NCBI GenBank assembly: GCA_023818965.1
Contig: JAMWCD010000006.1
Coordinates: 205,475 to 269,474 of the forward strand
DNA from: Candidatus Omnitrophota bacterium
GTDB lineage: Bacteria; Ratteibacteria; UBA8468; B48-G9; DTJG01
Direction of reading: 5' to 3'
Length of the DNA stretch: 64,000 nucleotides
Part shown: piece by piece, positions 39,406-59,016 of the stretch
Position numbering within the stretch: the first letter of the stretch is position 1
Layout of the letters: every line of letters begins with the position of its first letter
The notes under the pieces: generated by a model
The model's database searches: none
What the model saw: the letters and a program-made list of their open reading frames with translations, nothing else
What the model was told of the DNA's origin: nothing
Program-made: the position numbers and the translations under genes

Positions 39406-41157
39406 ATGAAAATAGGCAAGCAAAGGCGACTTGTTTTTGATTTTGGGACATACCATATTCGTGCTATTGAAATCGCGCCAGGTAGAAATGCCAAAAAGTT
39501 CACAATTAACTACTACCAGCAATATGATACCCCACCATTTGCATATGATGCGAGAATTCCTGTTCTCAGGACAGAAGGGAATGAATTTATAAAATCACTT
39601 GGTGTCAAAAGGGCAGCAGTTTCTCTTCCTGGCAGGGGCATTCTTATCAGAGCCATTACTGTACCAAAGGTTCCTCTCGGAAAATTGAGGGACATTCTTA
39701 AATTTGAAATCCAGCAGCAGATTCCATTTCCGATTGAGGTTGTTGCCTGGTCATATCAAATTATTTCTGAATCAGATAAAAGTTTTCAGGTTTTGTTGTG
39801 TGCTGCAAAAAAAGACCTTGTTAATGATTTCATTGCTCATCTCTCACCATTTGCACTAACAATTGAAACCCTTGATACGGATTTCTTCGCCATTTACAAT
39901 CTTTTCCGGATATCACCTTTTTATAAGTCAGATGAGTGTCAGGCAATTCTTGATATTGGTGCTCAAAGTGCAAACCTCATTATAAATCACCAGGACAGAA
40001 TCTTAATGAGGTCATTAACTACAACAGGTGACAGTATTTCGTCCACACTGGCAGAATCAAAGAAAATTGAATTTACTGAAGCAGAAAAAATAAAAATTGA
40101 ACAGGGTATGAAATCATCTGAAATATCCTCACTTGTGGACTCCCTTAATACAGAACTGCAGAATTCAATTGACTACTGGCGCTTTACATTAAAAGGTCCT
40201 GAATTAAACAGATTTTTTATTTGTGGTGGTACTTCAAAAATGATTGGTTTAAAAGAATATCTTGAACAGAAACTCAGGGTTCCTGTGGTTTATCTTGATC
40301 CACTTATGTTCTGTGATGTTGACCCTGAATATCAGGAATATCTTGCCGATAAAGGTCCTGAAATTGCTACTGCCTGTGGTATTGCATTAAGGACAATTAA
40401 ACTTAACCCAATTGAAATTGATATGTTGCCTGTTGAGATTATCAGAATGAGAGAATTTGCTGAAAACAGGCCTTATATATTTTTATCCACAATAATGGCA
40501 GTGTTGCTCACATTGACACCACTGTTTTTCTTGAGAATAGAAAAAACCGGTTATGAGAACTATAAAAAAGAACTTGAGACATCCCTGCAGGAATATGAAA
40601 AGTTTAAACCACAGGTCGAAGCCCTTCAGAAAAGTATTAATGATGTGAAAGGCAAGATTGGAGTTGTTCAGGACTTATTTGAAAAAAAAGCATTATGGCT
40701 TGCAAGAATCATTGAAATTGGCAGTAATCTACCAAGCAGTAGAATTTACCTGAACAATATTTATCCTTCAGGAACTCAGGTTGCTCAGGCTGCTCCTGCA
40801 CCGGCTCCTCAACCGGGACAGCCACCCGGACCTCCTGGTCCTGGAGCAGGTACACCACCTCCACCAGGAGCACCTGGTACTGCAGAGCCACCACCTGCTC
40901 CGGTAGCAGCTCCACAGCCGGCTCCACAACCATCAGCGCAAACAGGGGCACCTTCAACATTACCTGAAAAGATAGATGTACTGACCCTTGAAGGTGAAGC
41001 AATTGCAACCGATATTAGAAGTGCTTTTTCTGATTTGAAATTTTTTGTTCAAAGACTTTCAAGTTTGCCATTTTTTTCTGAGGTTGTTATAAACTCATGT
41101 GAACTTGACAGGGAAACAGGTAAACTGAAGTTTCTTCTAACTGCAAAGATAAAATGA
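39406..41157 (+). CDS. type IV pilus assembly PilM-PilN fusion protein
   Basis: 583 aa. Residues 1 to about 340 form an actin-like PilM ATPase fold (VFDFGTYHIRAIEI...FICGGTSKMIGL). After that come a TM helix (IFLSTIMAVLLTLTPLFFL), a coiled coil, a Pro-rich linker (APAPAPQPGQPPGPPGP...), and a PilN-like periplasmic domain. Confidence 0.75.
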   Translation: MKIGKQRRLVFDFGTYHIRAIEIAPGRNAKKFTINYYQQYDTPPFAYDARIPVLRTEGNEFIKSLGVKRAAVSLPGRGILIRAITVPKVPLGKLRDILKFEIQQQIPFPIEVVAWSYQIISESDKSFQVLLCAAKKDLVNDFIAHLSPFALTIETLDTDFFAIYNLFRISPFYKSDECQAILDIGAQSANLIINHQDRILMRSLTTTGDSISSTLAESKKIEFTEAEKIKIEQGMKSSEISSLVDSLNTELQNSIDYWRFTLKGPELNRFFICGGTSKMIGLKEYLEQKLRVPVVYLDPLMFCDVDPEYQEYLADKGPEIATACGIALRTIKLNPIEIDMLPVEIIRMREFAENRPYIFLSTIMAVLLTLTPLFFLRIEKTGYENYKKELETSLQEYEKFKPQVEALQKSINDVKGKIGVVQDLFEKKALWLARIIEIGSNLPSSRIYLNNIYPSGTQVAQAAPAPAPQPGQPPGPPGPGAGTPPPPGAPGTAEPPPAPVAAPQPAPQPSAQTGAPSTLPEKIDVLTLEGEAIATDIRSAFSDLKFFVQRLSSLPFFSEVVINSCELDRETGKLKFLLTAKIK

Positions 41158-42077
41158 AAAAAATACTGAGTTTTTTAAAAAAGAATCTTGTTTTTGTTTT
41201 CCTTGTGATTGTTCTTGGGCTACTGGGTTTTGGGTTTAATCTTATAAGAAAGACGCAGCAGGAACTTAAGAAGATGGAAGAAGAGATAAAGGCGAAACAT
41301 GATGAAATAAGAAAGTATGAAACTCAGAAAGAACTGGCACCATCACCAGAACTTGTCAATAAATTGCAAAAACAATATACTGCGGTTGCAGAACAGTTTA
41401 ACTCTCTGTTAAACCGTTTTTCCACAACCTATCCAGCAGTACCTGAGTTTAAGGTTTTCCCGAATGTTGAATTTAAGGAATTTCTTTTTGAGACAGGAGA
41501 CCAGTTAAAAAAGAAAGCCAAAAAGAATAATGTAATTATACCCTCATCCTTTGGATTTCAGGAGACAGGTTTTCCATCACCTGACCAGATACCATTATTT
41601 TCGTTACAGATTACTGTAATCAAGCATATTCTTGACCTGCTTATTGATTCAGGTATCAGTGTTGTTAATTCGGTTGTCCCTGGTATTCCATCAACGGTTG
41701 CTTTTTATAAAATCCTTCCTCTTGATGTATCAATTACAGGAACAAGCATTGAAATTATCAGGTTTTTAAGATACCTTAACAATCCTTCATCATTCTTCAC
41801 ACTTGAAAGTTTTGCTGTGACAAAGAAGGACACAGGTTTATTTCAGGGGAATTTTAAAATCAATGCTGTGATGATTGAAAAAGCAGCCGCAGTTGTTACT
41901 TCTGAAATACCAAAAGGGACACAGCCTTCTGCACAGGGAGCACCAGGAAGTCCTTCCGGGCAGCCACAGGGAGTACCAGGAAGTCCTCCTGGAGTTCCCC
42001 AGCAGCCACAGAAAGTACCAGGACACCCTGCTGGTGTTCCCGGGCAGCCACAAGCACCACCTAATCCTGTTAAATAG
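41154..42077 (+). CDS. PilO-like inner-membrane pilus assembly protein
   Basis: 307 aa. N-terminal TM helix, coiled coil, periplasmic alpha/beta domain, and a Pro/Gln-rich tail. Lies in the PilO position, translationally coupled to pilMN. Confidence 0.55.
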   Translation: MKKILSFLKKNLVFVFLVIVLGLLGFGFNLIRKTQQELKKMEEEIKAKHDEIRKYETQKELAPSPELVNKLQKQYTAVAEQFNSLLNRFSTTYPAVPEFKVFPNVEFKEFLFETGDQLKKKAKKNNVIIPSSFGFQETGFPSPDQIPLFSLQITVIKHILDLLIDSGISVVNSVVPGIPSTVAFYKILPLDVSITGTSIEIIRFLRYLNNPSSFFTLESFAVTKKDTGLFQGNFKINAVMIEKAAAVVTSEIPKGTQPSAQGAPGSPSGQPQGVPGSPPGVPQQPQKVPGHPAGVPGQPQAPPNPVK

Positions 42078-42085
42078 GGATACTT

Positions 42086-44695
42086 ATGCAAAAAGATTTT
42101 ATTTCAAAGTGGAAGAATGCGGATAGAAAAGGTAGAAAGAAAATTCTGTGTGATTTTATTGCAGCAAAAAGAAGACAAAAAACAAATGTTTCAGATACAA
42201 GAAAAAAAATCTCATTACAGAATAAATCTGCGAGAAAACCTGTTTTGTCCTGTCTACCGAAGATTCCTGAAATTAAAAGACATGCCCTTGCATTTTGCTT
42301 TTCCTCATCCTCAGATTCACCGACTGGAGCAAGAGATGATAACATTCAGGATTCAGGCGGTGAAGACCAGCCACCAAAGTCGCCTGAAGAACCTTCAAGA
42401 AAATCAAATATGAATGTCGATAAAGGTCCTGAAATTAAAAAAGACAAAGCCCGCCAGGATAAAAAGCAATTACTGATTAGATTTATTGAAGAAAAGAAAA
42501 GGGAAAAAGAAATTGCACAGAAGCAGCGACATGCAGAGAAAGAGGCGAGGAAGAAGTTAGCAGAGGAAGCCAGGAGGCAGGCGCAGGAGAAACTGGCGAT
42601 AGATGCAGAGGCGAGGCGGCAGGCGAAGCAATTGCGTCGGCAGGAGTTATTGAAGGCAAAGATAGAGAGAGAGATAAAGGCGAAAGCAGAGAGGCAGGCA
42701 AAGATAGAGGCGAAGCAGAAGGAGAAGGAGGCGATAGAGAAGAGCCGTCAGGTTGAGCTAGAGGAGAGGAAGAGATTAGTTGAAGAGGCATTGAAATTAA
42801 GGAAGCAGAAGAAGGAATTGCTTGTAGCATACCTTAATGGAATAAGAAGCAAGAGGGAGATAGAGCAGAAGCAACGACTTGCAGAGAAAGAGGCGAGGAA
42901 GAAGTTAGCAGAGGAAGCCAGGAGGCAGGCGCAGGAGAAACTGGCGATAGATGCAGAGGCGAGGCGGCAGGCGAAGCAATTGCGTCGGCAGGAGTTATTG
43001 AAGGCAAAGATAGAGAGAGAGATAAAGGCGAAAGCAGAGAGGCAGGCAAAGATAGAGGCGAAGCAGAAGGAGAAGGAGGCGATAGAGAAGAGCCGTCAGG
43101 TTGAGCTAGAGGAGAGGAAGAGATTAGTTGAAGAGGCATTGAAATTAAGGAAGCAGAAGAAGGAATTGCTTGTAGCATACCTTAATGGAATAAGAAGCAA
43201 GAGGGAGATAGAGCAGAAGCAACGACTTGCAGAGAAAGAGGCGAGGAAGAAGTTAGCAGAGGAAGCCAGGAGGCAGGCGCAGGAGAAACTGGCGATAGAT
43301 GCAGAGGCGAGGCGGCAGGCGAAGCAATTGCGTCGGCAGGAGTTATTGAAGGCAAAGATAGAGAGAGAGATAAAGGCGAAGGCAGAGAGGCAGGCAAAGA
43401 TAGAGGCGAAGAAAATTTCTCCGAAAGTAAAGCCACCAGATATCAGACCAGAAAAAAGAAAAAAATTACTTTCCTTTATCAATGATCTGAAAGCAAAATA
43501 TCAGCAGGAAGTCATAAGACAGAAGATTGCAAAAGATGCCTTGAGGAAGCAAAAAGAAATTGCGGTTCTTGCATTAAAACAGGAAAGGCAGGCAAAAGCA
43601 ATTCAGGCAGCCGAATTCAGGGCACGGAAAAAACAAATTGAACTCCAGAAAAAAGAACTTCTCAAGGCAGAATTACTTCTTGCTGCAAAAAGAAAAGCAG
43701 AAGCAAAGGCAGTTGAGAAATCACGCAAAGAATATGAAAAACAGATTAAGGATTTTTCATCAAAAATTACTGGTGCTGTTTCAAATGTAAGCAAGTTGAC
43801 TGGGGCTGCTCTTACATCAGCAATTTCTTCTGTAACTCCATTTGTTAAGAAAGCCCAAAGTATTAAGGTCCCTGCTGCTGAAAAATTTGCAAAACCTGAG
43901 ATTGTTCCTGCAGAAGTTCCTGCAAAAGCAATACCTGCAAAAGCAGAAAAGGCAAAAAAGTACAGAGAACCAGTAAAGATTGGACCACTGTTGAGAAAGA
44001 ATGCATTCAGAATTCTTTTCTTGCTTTTACTTTTGATGTGGCTTGGCGAAATTTTGTTTTATTCACTGAGATGGCGACCGCCAAGGGAAAAGTTTGAGGA
44101 AATGTTTGGTTCTGAAGAAGCAAAATCCAGTAAAACAGGTTCTACTGAAATAACAGAGGCAGAAACAAAAATAGCAGAATATAAAATTCCTTCCATTAAC
44201 ATTGAAGGGAAAAGAGACCCATTTTCAAGTGGATTGTTGACAATGGAATTGATGAAAAAACCGAAACCAACAGAAATTGTAAAGGCATATCAACCCGAGA
44301 TTATTACAATTTCAAGAGCACCATCAATTGTTTCCTCCAGTGTTCAAAAACCTATAAGAGAAAAGGCAGAAAAGATTACACCGATTCTGAAACCAGAGAA
44401 ACCCGAACCAGCCACTGCAACATTGTCTGAGGCAACAACAACAAAGATACTTCCACCTGCTCCTGTTTCAAAACCTGAAGTTTCGCCATTGATTGTTCCA
44501 CAGATTGAGTGTAATCTTATCTACAGGGGTAGTTTGATTATGGAAGGGATTGAATATATTTTCCTTGAAGGCAAACAGAGAACATACAGGGTAACAGTTG
44601 GTGATGTTGTAGAAGGTTTCAGGATTCTGAAAAAAGAAAAGGGAGTGCTCACATTATCAAAGGAAGGAGTTATAATTGAAATTCCTGCTGAATAA
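42086..44695 (+). CDS. 869-aa bitopic protein: long E/K/R-rich helical N-terminal region containing tandem repeats, one TM helix, a Pro-rich linker, and a C-terminal PilP/GspC-HR-like beta domain
   Basis: No signal peptide. About 640 aa of KEKE-type charged helix. TM at FRILFLLLLLMWLGEILFYSL. The C-terminus (ECNLIYRGSLIMEGIEYIFLEGKQRTYRVTVGDVVEGFRILKKEKGVLTLSKEG) resembles the PilP / GspC homology-region fold. Sits in the pilP position between pilO and pilQ. Confidence 0.5.
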   Translation: MQKDFISKWKNADRKGRKKILCDFIAAKRRQKTNVSDTRKKISLQNKSARKPVLSCLPKIPEIKRHALAFCFSSSSDSPTGARDDNIQDSGGEDQPPKSPEEPSRKSNMNVDKGPEIKKDKARQDKKQLLIRFIEEKKREKEIAQKQRHAEKEARKKLAEEARRQAQEKLAIDAEARRQAKQLRRQELLKAKIEREIKAKAERQAKIEAKQKEKEAIEKSRQVELEERKRLVEEALKLRKQKKELLVAYLNGIRSKREIEQKQRLAEKEARKKLAEEARRQAQEKLAIDAEARRQAKQLRRQELLKAKIEREIKAKAERQAKIEAKQKEKEAIEKSRQVELEERKRLVEEALKLRKQKKELLVAYLNGIRSKREIEQKQRLAEKEARKKLAEEARRQAQEKLAIDAEARRQAKQLRRQELLKAKIEREIKAKAERQAKIEAKKISPKVKPPDIRPEKRKKLLSFINDLKAKYQQEVIRQKIAKDALRKQKEIAVLALKQERQAKAIQAAEFRARKKQIELQKKELLKAELLLAAKRKAEAKAVEKSRKEYEKQIKDFSSKITGAVSNVSKLTGAALTSAISSVTPFVKKAQSIKVPAAEKFAKPEIVPAEVPAKAIPAKAEKAKKYREPVKIGPLLRKNAFRILFLLLLLMWLGEILFYSLRWRPPREKFEEMFGSEEAKSSKTGSTEITEAETKIAEYKIPSINIEGKRDPFSSGLLTMELMKKPKPTEIVKAYQPEIITISRAPSIVSSSVQKPIREKAEKITPILKPEKPEPATATLSEATTTKILPPAPVSKPEVSPLIVPQIECNLIYRGSLIMEGIEYIFLEGKQRTYRVTVGDVVEGFRILKKEKGVLTLSKEGVIIEIPAE
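42500..43408 (+). repeat. 2.7 copies of a 348-bp (116-codon) in-frame tandem repeat; copies 2 and 3 are essentially identical at the nucleotide level
   Basis: Repeat unit (Q)KQRLAEKEARKKLAEEARRQAQEKLAIDAEARRQAKQLRRQELLKAKIEREIKAKAERQAKIEAKQKEKEAIEKSRQVELEERKRLVEEALKLRKQKKELLVAYLNGIRSKREIE. The mirrored antisense ORFs at 42483, 42834 and 43182 confirm the 348-bp period. The coding strand is purine-rich and GC-rich relative to its surroundings. Confidence 0.9.
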
Positions 44696-44739
44696 CTTGA
44701 CTTATGTTCAATTATCACGGTATAATACATGGAGGGAAA

Positions 44740-46635
44740 ATGAGAGGAATTAAAAAGACAAAAATCGCATTATTATGTTTTTCGCTGGCACTCTGGGGAT
44801 ATGTCTTACCTTCAATGGCTCAGACAACAAAAACATTTGCCACTTCCACAACAGAACTTGACCTTCTTTATAGCGATGCCATCAAAAGTTATTATCAAAA
44901 GGACTATGCAAGAGCAATAGCGCTTTTTAAACAGATCCAGGGTCTTTCTCCTGAATATAAAAAATCGCAGATCAACCATTATGTCAGAACTGCTGAAAGT
45001 CGTCTTGGCAAGACAACTCCTGTTACTGTTTTCAAGGTTCCTGGACAGCCGACAAAAGAAATAGAAATTAATAAAGAAGGTGAACTTGAAGCAATGGCTG
45101 AAGAAGCACAGAAAGTGCTGCTAAATACAGCCAGTTATCTGGATTCAGTAGAAAAAGAAGGCAAACTAACTGAGTTTCAACTTGTTGGTCCGAAATCATC
45201 CTTGAAAATGGCAAAAGAAGCATATGAAAACAGTCAATACACAGAGGCGATACGACTTGCCAATAAAGCAAGATTCCAGATTGACCAGTTTATTACTCAG
45301 AAAAAACCAGGTATCGTTCTTGGAAAATATGCTGACTATCCTGTAACACTGAATCTTACAGATGCAGATTTAAGCCAGACATTAAAATTGATTTATGATT
45401 TAACAGGTGCCAATATTGTATTGATGCAGGGTATTACCGGAAGGGTTTCAATCAATGTCAAGGACCTTCCCCTTCAGAGGGTTCTTGATCTTATATGTGA
45501 GGCGAACAATCTGAAGTATGTTGAGGACAATGGTGTAATAAAAATAATGACAGCAGAAGAATTTAATAAGTCCGCTGCAGCAGTGAAAGCGCGGTTGCGC
45601 AGGGTTTTCCAGGTTTACTATGGAGATGCCTTCAGTATAATGAAGGCACTAAAAGAAACATATCCAACTCAGACGATTGTTCATGATCCAAGAACAAATT
45701 CAATCATTGTTGAGGCATCTGATGAAGAAACTGCCGCAAGAATTGGAGAGATTGTTTCTTCACTTGATACACCGATTTCTCAGGTACTGCTTGAGGCAAA
45801 ACTTGTTGAAATTGTACTTTCTGATGAGAATACATTTGGTATTGACTGGCTTGTAAGTTCACGACTTGTTTCTGCTCTTGGTTCAGGCGGAACTCTAACA
45901 GGACCAAGATTCGGGGATAATCCGAATTTTACTCCTGGAGTATCCTCTTCCTTACCTCAGGGAACATTTTCTTTTGGAATAACAAATTATGATGTAAATG
46001 CCTTGATTCAGGCATTAAGTGCAAAGGGACAGGTGAAACTATTGCAGGCACCAAAGATTATGTGTCTCAATGGTACAACAGCAGTGATCAGTGTACAGAC
46101 AAACGTACCATATTTGATACCCCAATCAACTGTATCACAGCAGCAGCAAACCATTACGACAACCGCAACATTCAATGTTTTTGAAGACCAGGTTGGAACA
46201 GAGTTTACTGTTACTCCTATTATTCAGAGAAACAGGAGTATCTTTTTGAACCTTAACATCTATGATGCACGTTTGATAGAAATTAAACGATTGACAGCAA
46301 TCGCAGGAGGACAGCAATATTCAACAGACCAGCCCGTGATTTCAAACAGGGAAACAAACCAGAGTATTGTTGTTTATGATGGTCAAACCTTGATTATCGG
46401 TGGTATGATTCAGGATAGGAAAGAACTTAAAACTACAGGTGTTCCTTTTCTCCAGCATATACCACTATTGGGATATCTTTTTAAGAAACCAAGTTACAGC
46501 AGTGCAAAAAGTGAGATGTTACTGTTTTTGACACCAAGGGTAGTAAGTACATATGAGGATGCTAATGCTGTCAGTAAGCCAGATGTACAAAAACTGGACA
46601 AAAAGATTGATGCCGGTATTCTTGAAAAGTACTGA
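44740..46635 (+). CDS. pilQ: PilQ-type secretin
   Basis: Signal peptide, TPR-like helical segment, secretin N domain (VTLNLTDADLSQTLKLI...), secretin core (VLLEAKLVEIVLSDENTFGIDW), and the C-terminal signature GVPFLQHIPLLGYLFKKPSY...LLFLTPRVV. Confidence 0.85.
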   Translation: MRGIKKTKIALLCFSLALWGYVLPSMAQTTKTFATSTTELDLLYSDAIKSYYQKDYARAIALFKQIQGLSPEYKKSQINHYVRTAESRLGKTTPVTVFKVPGQPTKEIEINKEGELEAMAEEAQKVLLNTASYLDSVEKEGKLTEFQLVGPKSSLKMAKEAYENSQYTEAIRLANKARFQIDQFITQKKPGIVLGKYADYPVTLNLTDADLSQTLKLIYDLTGANIVLMQGITGRVSINVKDLPLQRVLDLICEANNLKYVEDNGVIKIMTAEEFNKSAAAVKARLRRVFQVYYGDAFSIMKALKETYPTQTIVHDPRTNSIIVEASDEETAARIGEIVSSLDTPISQVLLEAKLVEIVLSDENTFGIDWLVSSRLVSALGSGGTLTGPRFGDNPNFTPGVSSSLPQGTFSFGITNYDVNALIQALSAKGQVKLLQAPKIMCLNGTTAVISVQTNVPYLIPQSTVSQQQQTITTTATFNVFEDQVGTEFTVTPIIQRNRSIFLNLNIYDARLIEIKRLTAIAGGQQYSTDQPVISNRETNQSIVVYDGQTLIIGGMIQDRKELKTTGVPFLQHIPLLGYLFKKPSYSSAKSEMLLFLTPRVVSTYEDANAVSKPDVQKLDKKIDAGILEKY

Positions 46636-52808: not shown

Positions 52809-53191
52809 TGAAAAGAAAAACTGGTTTTACGCTTCTTGAAGCAATGGTGGCAGTTGGAATATTTGCAATACTTGGTATTGTTTGTCTTGAAAATTATCTT
52901 CTTAATGCAGGTATTGCCCAGAAGATTATTGATGACCAGACATGTTTGATTCTTGCCAGGCAAAAGGAATTTGAGTACTTACAGAATCCTGAAAATATAA
53001 GTGAAACAGGTGATTTTGGAGATATTGACCCAGAAGCGAAATATCAAATAGAGACAAGTGATATATCAGTAAGTGAAACTGTGACTGTTGACAGTGAAAT
53101 TACTCTCAACTTTACTGTTGTGAGGATGATTGTGAAAAAAAGAAGTTCAATGGTTTCTTATCCTTTTTTAATAAAACCAGCGACAGAATAA
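52808..53191 (+). CDS. gspI: GspI-like minor pseudopilin
   Basis: MKRKTGFTLLEAMVAVGIFAILGI leader. About 127 aa, the typical size for GspI. Confidence 0.65.
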   Translation: MKRKTGFTLLEAMVAVGIFAILGIVCLENYLLNAGIAQKIIDDQTCLILARQKEFEYLQNPENISETGDFGDIDPEAKYQIETSDISVSETVTVDSEITLNFTVVRMIVKKRSSMVSYPFLIKPATE

Positions 53192-53212: not shown

Positions 53213-53764
53213 ATGATGAATTACACAATGGAAAAAAAGAATGCAGGTTTTACATTGATGGAGATGCTTGTAGTTATTGTGATTGGTTTTATTATTGTAC
53301 TTCTTGTTTATCAGACGATGCAATCAACAATTCGTGTTTCTGCGGTAATACAGGAAAAAATTACTGATATGCAAAGAGTGAATTTTTTTCTCACATCATT
53401 TTCATCCCGTTTATTATGTATTGTTCCTGACAGCAAGAACAATAGTTTTACCAGCAGTAAAGTTTCCATTGAACTGGACGAATATAATTCAAGAAAAATT
53501 ATTACCTATGAAATTGAACCAGATGAAACAGGAAAATTTGGCCTTACTGTTGGTGAAAAGGATATTCTATTAAATACAGAGTGTTCATATCCTGGATTGA
53601 GTGGTCTTGATAGCATAGAATTTTCATTTTTTGATGGTGATTCGTGGTTGACTGATTGGGATAAAGATACATTACCACAGGGAATAGCCATTACATTTGT
53701 GAGAAATGGTTCTAAAATATTTTTTCCTGTGAAACTTGACATTCAAAGTGTGCAGGAAACATAA
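53213..53764 (+). CDS. gspJ: GspJ-like minor pseudopilin
   Basis: KKNAGFTLMEMLVVIVIGFIIVLL leader and a GspJ-like C-terminus (...WLTDWDKDTLPQGIAITF). Confidence 0.65.
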   Translation: MMNYTMEKKNAGFTLMEMLVVIVIGFIIVLLVYQTMQSTIRVSAVIQEKITDMQRVNFFLTSFSSRLLCIVPDSKNNSFTSSKVSIELDEYNSRKIITYEIEPDETGKFGLTVGEKDILLNTECSYPGLSGLDSIEFSFFDGDSWLTDWDKDTLPQGIAITFVRNGSKIFFPVKLDIQSVQET

Positions 53765-53785
53765 TGATGAAATTCTCATTTTCCT

Positions 53786-53940
53786 CTTTTCCACCTTCCC
53801 TTCAGGAAGGAGGGAATGCAAGGGGAGGTTGAAATCTCCCAAAAATCCCCCTCTGTCCCCCTTTGAAAAAGGGGGAAGAGAAGGGGGATTTTAGAAAAGG
53901 GGGCAATAGAGGGAAAAATTGAATGGAAGGGGAATTTACA
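53786..53940. repeat. cluster A of G/C-rich hairpin repeats (C5T3-loop-A3G5 family) in the gspJ-gspK intergenic spacer
   Basis: ccttcaggaagg palindrome, tccccctttgaaaaaggggga hairpin, and repeated gggggatttt / aagggggaa motifs. Strongly G/C-biased compared with the flanking AT-rich DNA. Confidence 0.6.
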
Positions 53941-53998
53941 AGAGGGTAAAAAATATGGTTAAGTTTGGCAGAACCAAAAAGAATATGGAGTTAAACAG

Positions 53999-54898
53999 AT
54001 GAAAAATGGTTTCATACTCATTACCACGCTGGCATTTCTTGCAATTCTTGCTGCAAATGCTGTGCTACTATCGGATTTTATTAGATTTCGTGCTGAACTT
54101 CAACACAATCAGAATGCACAGTTTCTTGTTGACAAAATTGCAAGGGCAGGAATCAGTGCAGGTGAAACAATTTTACTTCTGGATAAAAACTCATATGACT
54201 GGTTTACTGATATATGGGTGAAGCCAAAACATCTTGAGTTTCCTGAAGGAAGTGTTGATATTACCATTGAGCCACTTGATACAAAATTCAATGTTAACAG
54301 TATTATTGGTCGTGATAAATCAATAAACACTCAGGCAAAAAACATTTTCAGTAATCTTTTGTCTGTTATGGGTTTTCCTTCATCCCTTCTTGATACACTG
54401 CTTGACTGGCTTGATAGCGATGATTTTCCAGGAGTTTTCGGAGCAGAATCAGAATATTATGCAACCCTTGTACCACCGTATAAACCTGCCAATGGACCTT
54501 TGAATGATACATTTGAACTTGCGTATATCAAAGGGTTTACACCTGAAATTTTAATCCGTAGCGGAGAAAGACCAGGGCTTATTGATTTGCTTACAATCTT
54601 TTCTGATAATAAAATAAATGTTAATATGGCTGACCCGATAATATTACAGGCACTCGGGTATTCATCTGCTTCTGTTGAGAAGATTTTGAATGAAAGAGAA
54701 CTCAGACCATTAACAATGAATATTCTTATGAGGATTGACAGACGGACGACAGGATCTCTTACAAGGGTAATAAAATTTTCAAGCAGTTTTTTTAAGATCA
54801 CTGCCCATGCAACATGTGCTGGAATTTCATCTACGCAATCACTTGTTGTTCAGAGGGCAAATAACAAAATCACAAGATTGAGATGGGAAAGAAATTGA
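53999..54898 (+). CDS. gspK: GspK-like minor pseudopilin
   Basis: 299 aa. N-terminal hydrophobic prepilin-like segment (GFILITTLAFLAILAANAVLL) and a GspK-like body (KFNVNSI...ADPIILQALG). Confidence 0.7.
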   Translation: MKNGFILITTLAFLAILAANAVLLSDFIRFRAELQHNQNAQFLVDKIARAGISAGETILLLDKNSYDWFTDIWVKPKHLEFPEGSVDITIEPLDTKFNVNSIIGRDKSINTQAKNIFSNLLSVMGFPSSLLDTLLDWLDSDDFPGVFGAESEYYATLVPPYKPANGPLNDTFELAYIKGFTPEILIRSGERPGLIDLLTIFSDNKINVNMADPIILQALGYSSASVEKILNERELRPLTMNILMRIDRRTTGSLTRVIKFSSSFFKITAHATCAGISSTQSLVVQRANNKITRLRWERN

Positions 54899-56148
54899 AC
54901 TTAATTGTCTATATCAGGGATAAGGAAAGATTTTATTTATCTACAGGTGAAAAGAAGATTTCATCTGTATTTGAAAATCATCCGGATATCTCTTCATTTT
55001 TCGAAGAAAATCATGTGACACATGTTACTGTTATCTTCGGTCGGCCTGCGATTTTTATCAGAAAAATTGAATTTCCATTTTCTTCTCTGAAAATGATTTC
55101 GCAGGTAATTTTAGAAGAAACATCTCCACTGTTCCCTGTTTCAACCGAAGAACTTGAACTATTCTGGTATCCTGTGTTAAAAGAAAAGACAAAAACCATT
55201 GTATCAATTCTTGGAATAGAAAAAAGCAAGATCGAGAAATGGCAAAAATTGAGTGCAACCCACAAATTCAAACTCAATATTTGTTTTGAACCATTTATTC
55301 TTTCCAATTATGTATCAAAAATCACAACAGAACGAAATTTTATTCTTGTTTTCGTTGACCATAATTACTTTGCCCGATACATTGTGAAAAATAAAATGGT
55401 CGTTGAAAGTAATTCTTCATATATTGAACCTGATACGATTGAAAATGTGCTGGCAGATGTTGTCAATAATAATGATGAAAGACATCCAGTTTTTTGTATA
55501 ACAGATTCAAAATTTTCTGCAAGAACCGACCAGTATACACTTTTGATTCCGCCTGCTTCAGAATCGGTCTCATCGGTTCTTTTTTCAATTTTTGAATCAA
55601 AGAAGAATTTATGCAAGCCATCCCACAGAGTATTTTCAGTTTCACGTTCAGAACTTGCGGTCAATCCTTTTGTCCTGCTGGCTGTGATTTGTTATCTCAT
55701 CATTGCAGGATTGATGTTCAGACCATTGTTGATAGCAAGGCAAATTCAGGAAAAGGTGAATGATACAGATAAAAAAATGGAACAAATTTTCAGGGAGGCA
55801 TTTCCTGATGTAAAAAAAATTGTTAATCCTGTTATACAGGCGAGGGAAAGGTTGAGAAATATTGGTGATGTTCAGAAAGTGGTTCCAAAAATTTCAGTAA
55901 TTTCTATAATGAAAGAAATTTCAGATATTGTTCCTGCCAATTTTCCTTTTAAAGTATCCCAGATGAGTTTGCGTGGCAGTGACCTTTTTTTAACCTGTTC
56001 CACTGATACACTTGAAAATGTTGAGTTACTTACGCAGAAATTTACCAGGTCCAGTATTTTCCAGAATGTAAAAGTGGGTAGCATTGTTCCTGAATCAGGA
56101 CAGATTACATTCAACCTGTTGATGAAAGTTAAATATGAAAAAAATTAA
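54883..56148 (+). CDS. gspL: GspL-like inner-membrane protein (cytoplasmic actin-like domain, TM, periplasmic domain)
   Basis: 421 aa. Approximately 250 aa cytoplasmic domain, TM helix (FVLLAVICYLIIAGLMF), and a periplasmic approximately 140 aa domain. Position between gspK and gspM. Confidence 0.55.
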   Translation: MGKKLNLIVYIRDKERFYLSTGEKKISSVFENHPDISSFFEENHVTHVTVIFGRPAIFIRKIEFPFSSLKMISQVILEETSPLFPVSTEELELFWYPVLKEKTKTIVSILGIEKSKIEKWQKLSATHKFKLNICFEPFILSNYVSKITTERNFILVFVDHNYFARYIVKNKMVVESNSSYIEPDTIENVLADVVNNNDERHPVFCITDSKFSARTDQYTLLIPPASESVSSVLFSIFESKKNLCKPSHRVFSVSRSELAVNPFVLLAVICYLIIAGLMFRPLLIARQIQEKVNDTDKKMEQIFREAFPDVKKIVNPVIQARERLRNIGDVQKVVPKISVISIMKEISDIVPANFPFKVSQMSLRGSDLFLTCSTDTLENVELLTQKFTRSSIFQNVKVGSIVPESGQITFNLLMKVKYEKN

Positions 56149-56632
56149 TTACAAAAATTTGTTGCTTGGGGGCTTTCTTATTCTACTGTTGCTTTATCAA
56201 TTTGTTTGTGCGCCAGGCATAAGAAAGATCAAAGGCCTCAACAAAACATATATTCAGAAGCAAAAAGAACTTGAAACATTGAACAATTTAATATCCCAGT
56301 ATAAGGCAAGGACAACTCAATCAACCACCTTGTTTGCTCCTTCCAATTTCAACCTTTATCTTTTTGTTTCTAAATCCATTGATATGATTGATTCAAAGGC
56401 ACGTATTTCAAGAATAACACCCGTGACAGAAAGTATTCTCTTAAATGCCATTGAACAACACATTACAATTGGAATTGAAGAAATTGAACTTGAGAAACTT
56501 TTAATGTTGCTTGATGAAATTGAGAAAAGGGACTTTTTGAGATATGGTTATCTTCAGATTTCTCGCAATGCCCAGAAACCCTTTGTTGTTAAAGCAGAGA
56601 TGGAAATTATTTCTTATAAGCCAGTCCAATGA
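56135..56632 (+). CDS. gspM: GspM-like inner-membrane protein
   Basis: 165 aa. Single N-terminal TM helix (LLLGGFLILLLLYQF) and a small periplasmic domain. Positional inference. Confidence 0.5.
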   Translation: MKKINYKNLLLGGFLILLLLYQFVCAPGIRKIKGLNKTYIQKQKELETLNNLISQYKARTTQSTTLFAPSNFNLYLFVSKSIDMIDSKARISRITPVTESILLNAIEQHITIGIEEIELEKLLMLLDEIEKRDFLRYGYLQISRNAQKPFVVKAEMEIISYKPVQ

Positions 56633-59016
56633 ACAAGATTTTTCTGATTGATGCCAATAACATTATCTACAGGTCTTTCTTTGCGATAAAACCATTTACC
56701 ACTTCAACAGGTCAACCGACAAACGCAATATTTGGATTTGTTTCCACACTTTTGAAAATTTTCAAACAATATAACCCGCAATACATGGCAATTGCTTTTG
56801 ATACACCTGTTCCAACATTCAGGCATCAAATTCTTGAACAATACAAAATTTCAAGGAAACCAATGCCTGACGAATTATCATCACAGATTCCTGTCATAAA
56901 AGAAATTATTAATGCATTTGGAATTACATCAATTGAAAAAGAAAAATTTGAAGCAGATGATTTGCTTGCCTGCCTTGCATTAAAATTTTCTGAACAAAAT
57001 TATGATGTTGTTATTGTCTCAGGAGACAAAGATATTCTTCAACTTTTATCAGACAAAATTTCGGTCATCAATCCTGCAACATGGGAGATGATTGATTCAA
57101 AAAAATTTTTTGAAAAATATTGTTTCAGTCCAGAAAAGATTGTTGATTTTCTTGCTCTGTGTGGGGACGCATCTGATTGTATTCCAGGGGTACCAGGGAT
57201 AGGAGAAAAGACCGCCTTGCAACTGGTACAACAATTTGGAACAATTGAATCAATTTATGAAAACATTGATAAAATAAAAGGCAAAAGGAAACAAATACTT
57301 CTTGATGGTAAACAATCAGCATTTTTAAGTAAACGCCTTGTTGAACTTTCAAAACAGGTGTCGTGCGAGATTGGTATTGATGAACTGAAAGTAAGAAAAA
57401 TTGACATTGAAAAAATCAGACAGATTTTTCAAAAACTTGAATTTAGAAAATTTGAGTCGCAAATATCAGAAATTTTTGGCAAGCACAATTTACATGAAAT
57501 TTCAAAGGATTTGTTTGCTATTGGAGATGAGATCTTTAATTTCAATGAAATTATGAAAGACCCGCATTTGTTTAAAGAAAAATTGGTTGATGAGAAGAAA
57601 ATAAAAATTTCATGGAACTTAAAAGAAAAGATCAAGCGTCTGGCATCAAAAAATATTGATATGTGTCCACCATATTTTGATTTTGATGTCGCATCATTTC
57701 TTTTAAATAATGTCATTTATGATTCTGACATTTTAAATCTTTATCAGAAATATCGGGAAAATCTCAAATCGCAGGAGATGTCTTTTCTTTCTGAAAATAT
57801 TGAGATGCCACTTATTGAAGTGCTTGCCTTTATGGAAATCAATGGCATTCTTGTTGACAAGCATTACCTTGAAAAACTGAAAAATGAATATGAAAATGAA
57901 ATGAATCAATTACAAGAAAAAATTTATTGTTTTGCAGGAGAAGTTTTTAATATTAATTCTCCATCGCAGGTTGCAAGGATTTTGTTTGAACGATTAGGGC
58001 TTCCTCCAAAGAAAAAAACAAAAACTGGTTATTCAACAGATACCAATGTTCTTGAACAATTACGTAATCAGCATCAGATTGTTGACCTGATTCTTCAACA
58101 CAGAGAACTTGCAAAACTGTGCAGCACTTATATTGATGGATTTTCTTCTTACATCAATCCAGTTGATAATAGAATTCATCCTGAATTTCAACAGACAATT
58201 GCCTCGAGTGGTCGTATTGTATGCCACAATCCAAACTTACAGGCAATTCCTGTAAAAACAGAAAAGGGTGGAAGAATAAGAAAAATTTTTGTTGCACCTG
58301 AAAATTCAATGTTATATTCATTTGATTACAATCAAATTGAATTAAGAATTCTTGCTCATTTTTCAAAAGACAAAAATCTTGTAGAAGCATTTAAAAATCA
58401 CAGGGACATACACCTTGAAACAGCAAGACAACTTTTTTCATTTGATTCGCAATCACTTTTTGGAAACCAGGAAATTGATATTTACCGTCGCATAGCAAAA
58501 ACAATAAACTTTGGTATTATCTACGGGATGAATAGTTATGGTCTTGCTCAACGACTTACATGCACTGTTGACCAGGCGCAGGCATTTATTGAGTCATATT
58601 TCGCAAAGTTTCAGGGAGTTAGAAGTTATATTCAACAGGCAATTTCAGAAGCAGAAAAACTTGGTTATGCAAAAACACTTTTTGGAAGAAAAAGATATTT
58701 ACCGGAAATTCATTCTGAAAACAGAAATCAGGTGGCATTTGCATCAAGGGTTGCAATCAATATGCCCATTCAAGGCACTGCAGCAGAATTGATAAAACTT
58801 GCAATGATTCAGATTCATAATTTCATTAAAAAAAATAAGATGAAAACAAAAATGATTCTTCAGATTCACGATGAACTTGTTTTCGAAATCCCTGACTGCG
58901 AAGTAGATATTGTTAAGGAAATCAAGAGAATCATGGAAAATGTGTACCATCTTATTGTGCCATTAAAGGTGAATGTTCAAAAAGGACAAAATTACCTTGA
59001 TATGCTTGAAATTTAA
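56629..59016 (+). CDS. polA: DNA polymerase I (5'-3' exonuclease plus polymerase; about 795 aa, Taq-like size)
   Basis: N-terminal FEN-like domain (FLIDANNIIYRSFFA). Pol A motifs A/B/C (DYNQIELRILAH, RRIAKTINFGIIYGM, ILQIHDELVFE). ATG overlaps the gspM stop (ATGA). Confidence 0.9.
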   Translation: MNKIFLIDANNIIYRSFFAIKPFTTSTGQPTNAIFGFVSTLLKIFKQYNPQYMAIAFDTPVPTFRHQILEQYKISRKPMPDELSSQIPVIKEIINAFGITSIEKEKFEADDLLACLALKFSEQNYDVVIVSGDKDILQLLSDKISVINPATWEMIDSKKFFEKYCFSPEKIVDFLALCGDASDCIPGVPGIGEKTALQLVQQFGTIESIYENIDKIKGKRKQILLDGKQSAFLSKRLVELSKQVSCEIGIDELKVRKIDIEKIRQIFQKLEFRKFESQISEIFGKHNLHEISKDLFAIGDEIFNFNEIMKDPHLFKEKLVDEKKIKISWNLKEKIKRLASKNIDMCPPYFDFDVASFLLNNVIYDSDILNLYQKYRENLKSQEMSFLSENIEMPLIEVLAFMEINGILVDKHYLEKLKNEYENEMNQLQEKIYCFAGEVFNINSPSQVARILFERLGLPPKKKTKTGYSTDTNVLEQLRNQHQIVDLILQHRELAKLCSTYIDGFSSYINPVDNRIHPEFQQTIASSGRIVCHNPNLQAIPVKTEKGGRIRKIFVAPENSMLYSFDYNQIELRILAHFSKDKNLVEAFKNHRDIHLETARQLFSFDSQSLFGNQEIDIYRRIAKTINFGIIYGMNSYGLAQRLTCTVDQAQAFIESYFAKFQGVRSYIQQAISEAEKLGYAKTLFGRKRYLPEIHSENRNQVAFASRVAINMPIQGTAAELIKLAMIQIHNFIKKNKMKTKMILQIHDELVFEIPDCEVDIVKEIKRIMENVYHLIVPLKVNVQKGQNYLDMLEI

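What the first reader, a model, noticed from the sequence alone, without database searches (positions are those of the whole stretch)
39406..59016. Composite locus: a T4P alignment module (pilMN-O-P-like-Q) fused head-to-tail to a complete T2SS (gspD-M), with two secretins but one ATPase and one platform
Seventeen co-directional, mostly translationally coupled genes encode a PilM-PilN fusion, PilO, a giant PilP/GspC-like protein, a PilQ secretin, a HEAT-repeat secreted protein, then GspD, E, F, G, H, I, J, K, L, M. Canonical T4P loci have pilMNOPQ separate from pilB/C/T. Canonical T2SS loci have one secretin and use GspC, not PilMNOP. Here two outer-membrane channels and two PilM/N-type inner-membrane modules (the PilM-N fusion plus GspL/M) share a single GspE and a single GspF. 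No pilT retraction ATPase, prepilin peptidase or GspC is present in the window. This could be one hybrid nanomachine or two machines sharing a motor. A single operon with this organisation is not, to my knowledge, a described architecture.
Basis: partly seen in the sequence, partly recalled or inferred. Interest (0 to 1): 0.85.

Follow-up and report, generated by a model that had tools for sequence, protein, structure and literature searches.

The report
Two secretion scaffolds, one motor, conserved locus
An uncultivated bacterial lineage keeps, in one tightly packed gene array, a standard type II secretion system next to a second pilus-type membrane scaffold with its own outer-membrane pore (related to the Akkermansia Amuc_1100 cluster), but only one motor. 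The layout is real and appears undescribed, but whether the two halves share the motor is not proven.

Summary
The gene content is real, but the boundaries are wrong. Fifteen machine genes span 39406-56632.

Module 1:
- PilM-PilN fusion.
- A PilO-fold protein of the Amuc_1100 family.
- An 869-aa protein whose C-terminus has the PilP/GspC HR fold.
- A PilQ-type secretin.

This is the counterpart of the Akkermansia Amuc_1101-1098 "type IV pili" cluster.

Module 2 is a canonical-order T2SS, gspD-E-F-G-H-I-J-K-L-M, without GspC. Its gspH is split at a strictly conserved T9 slippery run. GspL and the PilM-N fusion are full-length paralogues (hhalign 99.6%).

The whole array, from tRNA-Met to polA, is kept in every relative with enough sequence, down to 41% PilM-N identity. 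In Planctomycetota and Akkermansia, module 1 stands alone. In one Omnitrophota MAG it replaces GspL/M/C/D inside a T2SS-like operon.

My leaning (0.4) is two scaffold-and-secretin branches that are co-expressed and coupled, through the single HR connector and probably the single GspE/GspF motor. Two independent machines (0.35) cannot be excluded, because only about 80 kb of the genome could be inspected. Tight gene packing also covers unrelated genes.

Verdict: new variant of a known kind, moderate interest.

The parts
39225..39299 (+). tRNA-Met (CAU), the conserved upstream boundary of the array
   Evidence: Rfam 61 bits and ARAGORN. It sits at the same place in L001, L003, L008, L010, L014, L022 and L023.
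39406..41157 (+). PilM-PilN fusion protein (Amuc_1101-like; GspL-like architecture). It has a cytoplasmic actin-like domain, one TM helix (aa 356-374), a coiled coil, and a PilN-like domain interrupted by a Pro-rich insert.
   Evidence: PilM_2 1.5e-29 and Amuc_1101_fam 4.9e-65 (below the equivalog cut-off). BLASTP to the L032 PilM+PilN fusion 1e-51. End-to-end hhalign with the GspL family.
41154..42077 (+). Amuc_1100-family, PilO-fold bitopic protein with a Pro-rich tail
   Evidence: NF038287 6.6e-13. Homologues carry PF28028. AF2 pLDDT 78; Foldseek matches 6KNY/6LAD/6LAF at E ~4e-10, then PilO 3jc8_O, 2rjz and 5uvr. The profile against PDB gives PilO as best hit, E 0.15.
42086..44695 (+). 869-aa connector. 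It has about 630 aa of Lys/Glu/Arg-rich coiled coil (inferred cytoplasmic) with a 348-nt tandem repeat (42518-43411), one TM helix (aa ~635-653), a conserved IEGKRDPFS motif, and a C-terminal PilP/GspC-type HR domain.
   Evidence: TRF finds 2.6 copies at 99% identity. TM helix. Alignment A2. AF2 C-terminal domain pLDDT >90. The top 14 Foldseek hits are all PilP, GspC-HR, PulC-HR, LspC or GspB, with TMt up to 0.75. No HMM or PDB sequence hit.
44704..46635 (+). Secretin 1, PilQ-type (TPR-like N-terminal region, N0, one N domain, secretin domain; no AMIN domain)
   Evidence: Secretin 1.6e-40, STN and N0. PilQ 205 bits and GspD 201 bits, both below cut-off. Best PDB hit is M. xanthus PilQ at 3e-34 over residues 207-616, whereas GspD hits cover only 327 onward.
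46708..47514 (+). Secreted HEAT-repeat protein with Ser/Thr-rich linkers, conserved between the two secretin genes
   Evidence: HEAT 3.5e-18. N-terminal hydrophobic segment. Present at this position in all relatives.
47536..49095 (+). Secretin 2, GspD (N0, two N domains, secretin domain; short, 519 aa)
   Evidence: TIGR02517 432 bits > 351. N0 87 bits. The top 10 PDB hits are all T2SS GspD, best 1.7e-69.
49079..50620 (+). GspE assembly ATPase, the only one in the window
   Evidence: T2SSE 452 bits plus MshEN. TIGR02533 614 bits (cut-off 630) against PilB 553 bits. phmmer finds no paralogue in the window.
50622..51818 (+). GspF platform protein, the only one in the window
   Evidence: T2SSF 193 bits. 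TIGR02120 356 bits against PilC models up to 261 bits. No paralogue.
51894..52349 (+). GspG major pseudopilin
   Evidence: T2SSG 144 bits and N_methyl.
52294..52808 (+). gspH minor pseudopilin, in two frames joined by a -1 shift at a T9 run (52395-52403; U UUU UUU in frame)
   Evidence: Reading of the sequence. The same frame arrangement occurs in L089, L090, L091, L092, L093 and L096. Exactly nine T's are kept in all 8 sequences while the flanks vary.
52808..53191 (+). GspI-like minor pseudopilin (the ATG overlaps the gspH stop, TAATG)
   Evidence: N_methyl 4.8e-7. Prepilin motif.
53213..53764 (+). GspJ-like minor pseudopilin
   Evidence: N_methyl 2.9e-7 and T2SSJ 3.3e-5, below cut-off.
53999..54898 (+). 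GspK
   Evidence: T2SSK_1st 76 bits.
54883..56148 (+). GspL-type protein (cytoplasmic domain, TM helix at aa ~255-273, periplasmic domain). A full-length paralogue of the PilM-N fusion.
   Evidence: Weak direct hits: GspL_C 1.4e-4 and TIGR01709 1.4e-4. Of 32 homologues sampled, 23 carry GspL_C, 17 PilN, 11 T2SSL and 10 PilM_2. hhalign against the PilM-N family gives 99.6%. The profile hits PDB PilM at 5.5e-30 and GspL at 1.2e-4.
56135..56632 (+). GspM-like small bitopic protein
   Evidence: T2SSM 2.4e-4, below cut-off. Supported by position, size and an N-terminal TM helix. No profile match to the Amuc_1100 family.
59135..61314 (+). Three tandem DUF1559-type prepilin genes with strong Shine-Dalgarno sites. 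They are possible filament subunits or substrates; the association is unproven.
   Evidence: N_methyl plus SBP_bac_10. Prepilin motifs. GGAGGTG upstream of each. Conserved downstream of polA in L089, L093 and L094.

Best explanation
**What the array encodes**

The 17.2-kb array 39406-56632 encodes one co-expressed type IV filament system with two paralogous envelope-spanning branches.
- Branch A is a PVC/Amuc-type T4P-like set: the PilM-N fusion, an Amuc_1100-type PilO, an HR-domain connector and a PilQ-type secretin.
- Branch B is a canonical T2SS set: GspL, GspM and GspD.

The array holds one motor (the GspE hexamer on GspF), one pseudopilin set (GspG plus H-K) and one HR-domain connector.

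**Proposed working**

- GspE and GspF polymerise GspG on a GspH-K tip.
- The cytoplasmic domains of GspL and of the PilM-N fusion each dock the motor.
- Their periplasmic partners (GspM; the Amuc_1100-like PilO) hold the connector.
- The connector's C-terminal HR domain binds the N0 domain of a secretin.
- The same motor can therefore feed either a GspD pore (folded exoproteins) or a PilQ-type pore (a fibre, possibly of the neighbouring DUF1559 prepilins).
- A slippery T9 run in gspH sets how much full-length GspH is made.

**Shown**
- Gene identities and folds.
- Paralogy of the two L-type proteins.
- Absence of a second motor, and of a canonical GspC, from the roughly 80 kb inspected.
- Strict conservation of the array.

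**Inferred**
- Co-transcription.
- Sharing of the motor.
- Contacts between the HR domain and the N0 domains.
- Topology of the connector.
- The roles of the two pores.
For: - **Two complete scaffold-and-secretin sets, one E, one F.**
- **No GspC in the T2SS part.** The only HR-fold protein in the window is in branch A, while both secretins carry an N0 domain.
- **A related lineage uses this scaffold family with T2SS-like genes.** In the Omnitrophota MAG locus L032, the PilM-N, PilO and TM+HR-like genes and the secretins directly follow gspE-F-G-H-I-J-K, in the place of gspL/M/C/D, and are again followed by polA. That locus also has two tandem secretin genes.
- **Conserved contiguity.** tRNA-Met to polA is kept in every relative with enough sequence, down to 41% PilM-N and 38% PheT identity. 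The machine proteins are more conserved than PheT, and the two secretins are conserved to almost the same degree.
- **Short gaps across the junction.** They are 72 and 21 nt, with no terminator-like site in them.
- **Precedents.**
  - The orphan XphA/XqhA (GspC/GspD) pair forms a functional hybrid with the Xcp machine in P. aeruginosa (Michel et al. 2007, as cited in PMC6567927).
  - In cyanobacteria one machinery is proposed to serve both T4P assembly and secretion (PMC8092324).
Against: - **Limited view of the genome.** Only about 80 kb was seen, so a PilB/PilC/PilT set, a GspC and the prepilin peptidase may lie elsewhere. Seymour et al. report T4aP genes in most Omnitrophota.
- **Branch A normally stands alone.** In 57 of 59 distant loci, including Akkermansia, the module has no ATPase or pilin gene within 10 kb. 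It normally works with parts encoded in trans, or with none.
- **Branch B looks self-sufficient** apart from GspC.
- **The two L-type proteins are very divergent.** They are detectable only profile to profile, so docking to one GspE needs two retained interfaces.
- **Packing and synteny are not specific.** They extend to unrelated genes (polA, pheST, zapA, proBA), so they do not prove functional coupling.
- **No expression or interaction data.**
Confidence: 0.4

Rival explanations
1. Two independent machines happen to be neighbours. One is a T2SS (gspD-M, with its GspC-equivalent and peptidase elsewhere). The other is a PVC/Amuc-type T4P-like alignment-plus-secretin module, with its assembly/retraction ATPases, platform protein and pilins encoded elsewhere, as with pilMNOPQ in classical T4aP organisms. 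The adjacency reflects a frozen gene order in small, compact genomes.
For: - Module 1 stands alone in 57 of 59 distant loci and in Akkermansia.
- T4aP components are reported as common in Omnitrophota.
- Conserved synteny and overlapping stop/start codons also cover unrelated housekeeping genes.
- The T2SS half has its own L, M and D.
Against: - No GspC partner for GspD is present, apart from the module 1 HR protein.
- L032 shows the same module family embedded in an E-K operon.
- No rearrangement separates the two halves in any relative, despite PheT divergence down to 38%.
Confidence: 0.35
2. There is one machine with a single composite channel and cage. The two secretins form a mixed or stacked outer-membrane assembly, perhaps organised by the periplasmic HEAT protein encoded between them. 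GspL/GspM and PilM-N/PilO form one mixed inner-membrane cage around one GspE/GspF.
For: - The HEAT gene is always between the two secretin genes.
- L032 has two adjacent secretin genes with only one PilM-N/PilO set.
- The two secretins show near-identical conservation across relatives.
Against: - I know of no precedent for heteromeric secretins (own knowledge).
- The two secretins share only about 104 bits in phmmer and have different N-domain sets.
- Each clearly resembles a different homomeric class, PilQ or GspD.
Confidence: 0.1
3. Module 1 is not a filament machine here. It is an abundant envelope complex, as suggested by the very high abundance of Amuc_1098-1102 proteins in Akkermansia membranes, with a structural or adhesive role. 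It is merely linked to the T2SS.
For: [quoted passage not shown]
- No motor or pilin genes accompany the module in most lineages.
- The connector has an unusual cytoplasmic coiled coil of about 630 aa with variable repeats.
Against: - All four proteins keep the folds and order of PilM/N/O/P/Q.
- L032 and L035 place the module directly after prepilin genes.
Confidence: 0.1

Closest known systems
Akkermansia muciniphila Amuc_1098-Amuc_1102 'type IV pili' gene cluster (PVC superphylum)
   Same: The order is the same: PilM-like (1101), Amuc_1100, a third gene, then the secretin (1098). The best NCBIfam hits of genes 1 and 2 are Amuc_1101_fam and Amuc_1100_fam. The gene 2 model superposes on Amuc_1100 crystal structures. 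An Akkermansia locus retrieved with the same query shows the cluster.
   Different: - All scores are far below the equivalog cut-offs.
- There is no Amuc_1102 homologue; tRNA-Met and zapA lie upstream.
- The third gene does not match Amuc_1099_fam, or the Akkermansia protein by hhalign. It carries an HR domain plus a long coiled coil.
- Sec1 is a 643-aa PilQ-like protein rather than an 800-990-aa Amuc_1098.
- The Akkermansia cluster has no T2SS genes within 10 kb.
Canonical T2SS (Gsp/Eps/Xcp/Pul)
   Same: gspD-E-F-G-H-I-J-K-L-M in canonical order. GspD is above the equivalog cut-off. Pfam matches to T2SSE, T2SSF, T2SSG and T2SSK are strong.
   Different: - No GspC; no GspN or GspO in the locus.
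- GspD is short (519 aa).
- GspL and GspM are very divergent.
- gspH needs a -1 frameshift.
- A second scaffold plus secretin precedes it directly.
T4aP alignment subcomplex PilMNOPQ (P. aeruginosa, M. xanthus, Neisseria)
   Same: The order is M-N-O-P-Q. It has a PilM domain, a PilO fold, a PilP-type HR fold, and a PilQ-type secretin with N0.
   Different: - PilM and PilN are fused, giving a GspL-like architecture.
- The 'PilP' is not a lipoprotein. It is a bitopic protein with about 630 cytoplasmic residues.
- The secretin has no AMIN domains.
- No pilB, pilC, pilT or pilA are found nearby.
XphA/XqhA orphan GspC-GspD pair of P. aeruginosa, which works with the Xcp machine
   Same: It offers an alternative connector-plus-secretin pair that uses the motor and pseudopilins of another T2SS (Michel et al. 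2007, via PMC6567927).
   Different: - It comprises only C and D, and is encoded away from xcp.
- Here the second set also has its own L- and M-type proteins, is of T4P/Amuc type, and is contiguous with the T2SS.
- Sharing is not demonstrated here.
Omnitrophota MAG locus L032 (JBDRBQ010000112): gspE-F-G-H-I-J-K, PilM-N, PilO, TM+HR-like protein, two secretins, polA (not a published system; found here)
   Same: It has the same PilM-N family (27% identity, 1e-51), a PilO, a small HR-like connector with a similar motif, two secretins, and polA downstream.
   Different: It has a single scaffold only, with no separate GspL, GspM or GspD. The scaffold lies 3' of the pseudopilin genes, there is no HEAT gene, and a toxin-antitoxin pair is inserted after gspG.

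Membership tests
Type II secretion system (Gsp) | GspD secretin with N0 and N domains | tested here: met
   TIGR02517 432 bits > 351. N0 87 bits. The top PDB hits are all GspD.
Type II secretion system (Gsp) | GspE ATPase and GspF platform protein | tested here: met
   Pfam T2SSE 452 bits and T2SSF 193 bits. GspE and GspF models score above PilB and PilC models, but just under the equivalog cut-offs (614/630 and 356/424).
Type II secretion system (Gsp) | Major pseudopilin GspG and minor pseudopilins GspH-K | tested here: met
   T2SSG 144 bits, T2SSK_1st 76 bits, N_methyl on I and J. H is present but needs a -1 frameshift.
Type II secretion system (Gsp) | GspL and GspM assembly-platform proteins | tested here: met
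   GspL is met through its homologues (GspL_C in 23 of 32, T2SSL in 11 of 32) and a PDB profile hit to GspL. GspM rests only on a weak T2SSM hit of 2.4e-4, its position and its topology.
Type II secretion system (Gsp) | GspC (TM helix, HR domain, PDZ or coiled coil) encoded with the system | tested here: not met
   No GspC-like gene is next to gspD. The only HR-fold protein is the 869-aa gene of module 1, which has no PDZ domain.
Type II secretion system (Gsp) | Prepilin peptidase GspO/PilD | tested here: not met
   Not found in the window by motif search. No peptidase A24 was seen among the ORFs scanned, nor in the called genes of about 14 kb of flanks. The rest of the genome could not be tested.
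T4aP alignment subcomplex PilMNOPQ | PilM actin-like protein and PilN bitopic partner | tested here: met
   PilM_2 103 bits > 27; TIGR01175 130 bits against a 133-bit cut-off. The PilN part is supported by alignment to a PilN-bearing fusion and by hhalign. The two are fused, unlike the classical pair.
T4aP alignment subcomplex PilMNOPQ | PilO | tested here: inconclusive
   No Pfam PilO hit. The fold matches PilO at E 1e-4 but matches Amuc_1100 better. The profile against PDB gives PilO at E 0.15.
T4aP alignment subcomplex PilMNOPQ | PilP lipoprotein with an HR domain | tested here: inconclusive
   The HR fold is met. There is no lipoprotein signal. Instead there is a TM anchor after about 630 residues of coiled coil.
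T4aP alignment subcomplex PilMNOPQ | PilQ secretin | tested here: inconclusive
   TIGR02515 205 bits, below the 284-bit cut-off, and GspD model 201 bits. The best PDB hits are PilQ over N0 to the secretin domain. No AMIN domain.
T4aP alignment subcomplex PilMNOPQ | Dedicated PilB, PilC and PilT proteins and a major pilin in the genome | not testable with these tools
   None in the 64-kb window or about 14 kb of flanks.
Amuc_1098-1102 cluster (PVC) | Amuc_1101-family PilM-like protein | tested here: inconclusive
   It is the best NCBIfam hit at 220 bits, but the cut-off is 650. The Akkermansia sp. homologue in L058 scores 594 bits.
Amuc_1098-1102 cluster (PVC) | Amuc_1100-family protein | tested here: met
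   NF038287 6.6e-13, below the equivalog cut-off. Homologues are annotated with PF28028. Fold TM 0.77 to 6KNY and 6LAF.
Amuc_1098-1102 cluster (PVC) | Amuc_1099-family and Amuc_1102-family proteins | tested here: not met
   The giant protein has no NCBIfam hit. hhalign against the Akkermansia 1099 homologue shows nothing. No 1102-like gene lies upstream.
Amuc_1098-1102 cluster (PVC) | Amuc_1098-family secretin | tested here: not met
   Only the C-terminal secretin core matches, at 75 bits against a 750-bit cut-off.

The most novel reading that the evidence does not exclude
A natural dual-output type IV filament machine. One GspE/GspF motor and one pseudopilin set are docked alternately by two deeply diverged L-type scaffolds (GspL/GspM and PilM-N/Amuc_1100-type PilO). 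A single HR-domain connector links them to two different secretins, one GspD-type for secretion and one PilQ-type for a fibre. Output would be tuned by programmed slippage in gspH. If so, this would also assign the medically studied Amuc_1100 family a native role, as the PilO/GspM-equivalent of a T2SS-like machine.
Probability: 0.25. Interest if true: 0.8.

Novelty: new variant of a known kind. Interest (0 to 1): 0.55.

Why it matters
- **Modular recombination of filament machines.** If the two branches share a motor, scaffold-and-secretin sets of type IV filament machines can be combined as modules around one ATPase and platform. This is the step that evolutionary studies invoke for the origin of T2SS from T4aP-like ancestors (PMC6668835).
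- **Context for Amuc_1100.** The protein is studied for its effects on the host, but its native function is unsettled. Here and in L032 its homologues sit where PilO or GspM sit in filament machines.
- **Ecology.** The lineage is uncultivated and labelled Ratteibacteria, Omnitrophota or TA06. Its cell-surface machinery bears on the host-dependent lifestyles proposed for Omnitrophota.
- **A separate lead.** The conserved T9 recoding site in gspH is a testable case of programmed slippage in a secretion-system gene.

Tried and rejected
- **Giant protein, sequence level.** Pfam and NCBIfam found nothing. A family profile against PDB sequences gave 0 hits. Pfam on 12 family members gave only noise. 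Only the predicted fold was informative.
- **Amuc_1100-like protein.** A single-sequence PDB search gave nothing.
- **GspM family against the Amuc_1100/PilO-like family.** hhalign showed no signal, so paralogy of the two M/O-type proteins is unproven. The GspM profile against PDB gave noise.
- **GspL, shallow profile (6 sequences) against PilM-N.** Only 5.7% probability. The deeper profile was needed.
- **Giant C-terminus** against the Akkermansia Amuc_1099 homologue and against protein X of L032. hhalign showed no signal. The similarity to X is by eye only.
- **Exact-match look-up of Sec1.** Not on record.
- **Promoter and terminator scan.** Counts were no different from shuffles, so the scan is uninformative.
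- **Rfam.** Only the tRNA was found, with no riboswitch upstream of the array.
- **Walking beyond the window ends.** No filament-machine genes were found, and the right-hand neighbour contig has a different gene order beyond RhaA.
- **Genomic island at tRNA-Met.** Considered and rejected. The array is conserved across the clade and its GC content is like the surroundings, apart from the repeat.
- **Assembly error in gspH.** Rejected, because the T9 run and the frame arrangement recur in 8 independent sequences.
- **Literature.** Searches found no description of the composite layout.

Full report
**1. What is in the sequence**

The interval lies in a 36% GC window with nearly all genes on the + strand.

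From 39406 to 56632 there are fifteen machine genes:
- a PilM-N fusion;
- an Amuc_1100-like protein;
- an 869-aa protein;
- secretin 1;
- a HEAT-repeat protein;
- GspD, E, F, G, H, I, J, K, L and M.

Its start overlaps the gspM stop by 4 nt.

A tRNA-Met gene (39225-39299) separates zapA from the first gene.

Intergenic gaps are -17 to 75 nt, except for 234 nt between gspJ and gspK. Consensus scans for promoters and terminators do not differ from shuffled sequence.

The window contains only one GspE-type and one GspF-type ORF, and no prepilin-peptidase motif. About 14 kb of flanking DNA recovered from matching contigs also holds no filament-machine gene.

**2. Module 1 is PilM/N/O/P/Q-like, of the Akkermansia (Amuc) type**

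*Gene 1.*
- It passes Pfam PilM_2 (103 bits). Its best NCBIfam hit is Amuc_1101_fam (220 bits, below the equivalog cut-off).
- It has one TM helix.
- It aligns with a PilM+PilN fusion from another MAG as far as the start of that protein's PilN domain.

*Gene 2.*
- It hits Amuc_1100_fam. Its homologues are annotated with PF28028, or named "Amuc_1100 family pilus-like protein".
- An AlphaFold model (pLDDT 78, 24-sequence alignment) matches the Amuc_1100 crystal structures 6KNY, 6LAD and 6LAF (E about 4e-10, TM about 0.77).
- The next matches are PilO from M. xanthus and P. aeruginosa.

*Gene 3.*
- No sequence-level match was found.
- Its last 60 or so residues fold with pLDDT above 90. The top 14 Foldseek PDB hits are all PilP or GspC/PulC/LspC/GspB HR-type domains.
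- Upstream of the single TM helix lie about 630 residues of charged coiled coil. These include a 348-nt repeat, 2.6 copies at 99% identity.
- Two assemblies with an identical PilM-N protein differ in the length of this protein, 1022 against 1080 aa.
- An invariant IEGKRDPFS motif follows the TM helix.

*Secretin 1.*
- It scores equally on the PilQ and GspD models, below both cut-offs.
- Against solved structures its best hit is M. xanthus PilQ, and PilQ hits span N0 through the secretin domain. GspD hits cover only the C-terminal half.

The gene order equals Amuc_1101-1100-1099-1098. That cluster is described in Akkermansia as a type IV pili gene cluster whose products are abundant membrane proteins (PMC5332112; PMC10688800). 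An Akkermansia locus recovered with the same query carries the full cluster.

**3. Module 2 is a T2SS without GspC**

- GspD exceeds the equivalog cut-off, and its ten best PDB hits are all T2SS secretins.
- GspE and GspF score higher on Gsp models than on Pil models.
- GspG and GspK have strong Pfam matches. GspI and GspJ carry prepilin signals.
- GspL and GspM give only weak direct hits.
- A full-library phmmer search with GspL found 417 relatives. Of 32 sampled, 23 carry GspL_C, 17 PilN, 11 T2SSL and 10 PilM_2.
- The GspL-family profile aligns end to end with the PilM-N family (hhalign 99.6%, E 1.7e-24). It also hits solved PilM and GspL structures.
- So the locus holds two full-length PilM-N/GspL-type paralogues.
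- No homology could be shown between GspM and the Amuc_1100-like protein.
- No GspC-like gene adjoins gspD. The only HR-fold protein in the window is gene 3 of module 1.

**4. gspH is recoded**

- The prepilin N-terminus (MMQTSQAVKLNPQKNHLNKG/FTLFE..., from ATG 52294) is in frame 1.
- The globular part is in frame 0, which opens only inside a T9 run at 52395-52403.
- Six independent relatives, with 68-100% GspK identity, show the same -1 arrangement.
- All eight aligned sequences keep exactly nine T's, while neighbouring codons vary.
- The run forms a U UUU UUU heptamer in the zero frame.
- This points to programmed -1 frameshifting or transcriptional slippage, not to an assembly error.

**5. 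Distribution**

*Source organism.* Homologues of the PilM-N fusion with at least 40% identity come from MAGs labelled Ratteibacteria, Omnitrophica/Omnitrophota or TA06.

*Close clade.* Every such locus with enough sequence keeps the order:
tRNA-Met, PilM-N, Amuc_1100-like, connector, Sec1, HEAT, GspD, GspE, GspF...
Where covered, this continues to GspM, polA and the DUF1559 prepilins.

*Conservation.*
- It holds down to 41% PilM-N and 38% PheT identity.
- The machine proteins are better conserved than PheT.
- The two secretins are conserved to nearly the same degree.
- However, the unrelated upstream genes (Band_7, PDH, proB, proA, nadD, pheST, zapA) are syntenic as well.

*Distant homologues (about 25-30% identity).*
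- These come from Planctomycetota, Uabimicrobium and Akkermansia. They have the module without any ATPase or prepilin gene within 10 kb in 57 of 59 loci.
- One Planctomycetia locus (L035) has prepilin genes directly upstream.

*The Omnitrophota MAG locus L032.* Its gene order is:
1. two GspE-like genes (the first cut by the locus start), then GspF and GspG;
2. a toxin-antitoxin pair;
3. GspH, I and J, and a PA14-bearing GspK;
4. the PilM-N fusion and PilO (Pfam);
5. a 237-aa TM protein with an HR-like motif (by eye);
6. a TPR+N0 ORF and two tandem secretin genes;
7. after two further ORFs (a 97-aa ORF and a Peptidase_MA-family protein), polA.

There the module takes the place of GspL/M/C/D in a T2SS-like operon.

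**6. How it most likely works**

Shown:
- There are two paralogous scaffold-plus-secretin sets.
- The locus holds one motor, one pseudopilin set and one HR connector.
- All of these are under purifying selection and fixed in order.

Inferred:
- The array is co-transcribed from downstream of the tRNA.
- The HR domain contacts secretin N0 domains, as PilP-PilQ and GspC-GspD do (established for those families).
- The connector's N-terminus is cytoplasmic.

I lean (0.4) to a coupled system in which the two branches use the same GspE/GspF and pseudopilins. The reasons are:
- the T2SS half lacks its own connector;
- L032 shows this scaffold family working with T2SS-like genes;
- there are precedents: the XphA/XqhA pair joins the Xcp machine (via PMC6567927), and a single machinery for T4P and secretion is proposed in cyanobacteria (PMC8092324).

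The main rival (0.35) is two independent machines, with the module 1 motor encoded elsewhere. The points for it are:
- that is the normal state of this module in other phyla;
- T4aP genes are reported as widespread in Omnitrophota (PMC10066038).

A heteromeric two-secretin channel (0.1) and a role for module 1 that does not involve a filament (0.1) are less likely.

**7. Comparison with what is known, and novelty**

- The parts are known kinds: T2SS, PilMNOPQ-like and Amuc-type.
- The survey of type IV filament systems treats chlamydial and Bacteroidetes T2SS as atypical, and does not describe a layout like this one (PMC6668835).
- Papers on Omnitrophota mention T4aP, Tad and T2SS genes only as markers.
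- I found no description of a conserved array that joins an Amuc-type PilM-N/O/P/Q module to a GspC-less T2SS.

I rate it a new variant of a known kind. Interest is moderate (0.55). The architecture is real, conserved and suggestive. The striking claim of one motor serving two conduits rests on absence within a partial genome view and on adjacency in a compact, highly syntenic genome.

Noticed in passing
window 52294-52808 (slip site 52395-52403); L089, L090, L091, L092, L093, L094, L096: gspH is encoded in two frames joined at a T9 run (U UUU UUU in frame). The run length and the -1 arrangement are identical in 8 independent sequences with 68-100% GspK identity, while the flanking codons vary. 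This is a candidate programmed -1 frameshift or transcriptional slippage in a minor pseudopilin gene.
   Followed up: partly
window 56629-59016; L032 17921-20629: polA starts 4 nt inside gspM (ATGA overlap). It is the downstream neighbour of the filament-machine genes both in this clade and in the differently organised Omnitrophota locus L032, where two ORFs intervene.
   Followed up: partly
window 39225-39299; same position in L001, L003, L008, L010, L014, L022, L023: A tRNA-Met (CAU) gene is conserved immediately upstream of the PilM-N gene in all clade members checked. L022 and L023 also have a tRNA-Gln right after gspE.
   Followed up: partly
window 42518-43411; L001 versus L002: A 348-nt tandem repeat (2.6 copies, 99% identical) lies inside the connector gene and raises local GC to 0.44. 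The protein length varies from 616 to 1080 aa among relatives. It differs (1022 against 1080 aa) between two assemblies that carry an identical PilM-N protein.
   Followed up: partly
window 40770-40950 and 41900-42074 (42-nt repeat at 41960-42052): Pro/Gly/Gln-rich low-complexity stretches interrupt the PilN-like domain of the fusion protein. They also form the C-terminal tail of the Amuc_1100-like protein.
   Followed up: no
window 53765-53998 and 63019-63037: The 234-nt gspJ-gspK gap is absent in relatives such as L090 and L091. It is a strongly folding G/C-tract element (-78 kcal/mol, z -2.5) with a CCCCCTTT...AAAGGGGG hairpin. A similar hairpin lies in another intergenic region. This may be a small repeated palindromic element.
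   Followed up: partly
window 59135-61314 and 18017-18775: Four DUF1559 (SBP_bac_10) prepilin-type genes have near-identical N-termini. Three are in tandem after polA, each with a strong GGAGGTG ribosome-binding site. One sits between a GntR/LacI-type regulator and a DUF4838/CBM9 glycosidase-like gene.
   Followed up: partly
L032 4935-5466 and 13045-16526: In the Omnitrophota comparator, a MazE/YafQ-like toxin-antitoxin pair is inserted between gspG and gspH. Two secretin genes lie in tandem, the first apparently continuing a TPR+N0 ORF that overlaps it.
   Followed up: partly
window versus L001, L003, L014, L023: The machine proteins (GspE 61-64%, both secretins 51-59%) are more conserved than the housekeeping PheT (37-42%) across the clade. 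The two secretins track each other closely.
   Followed up: partly
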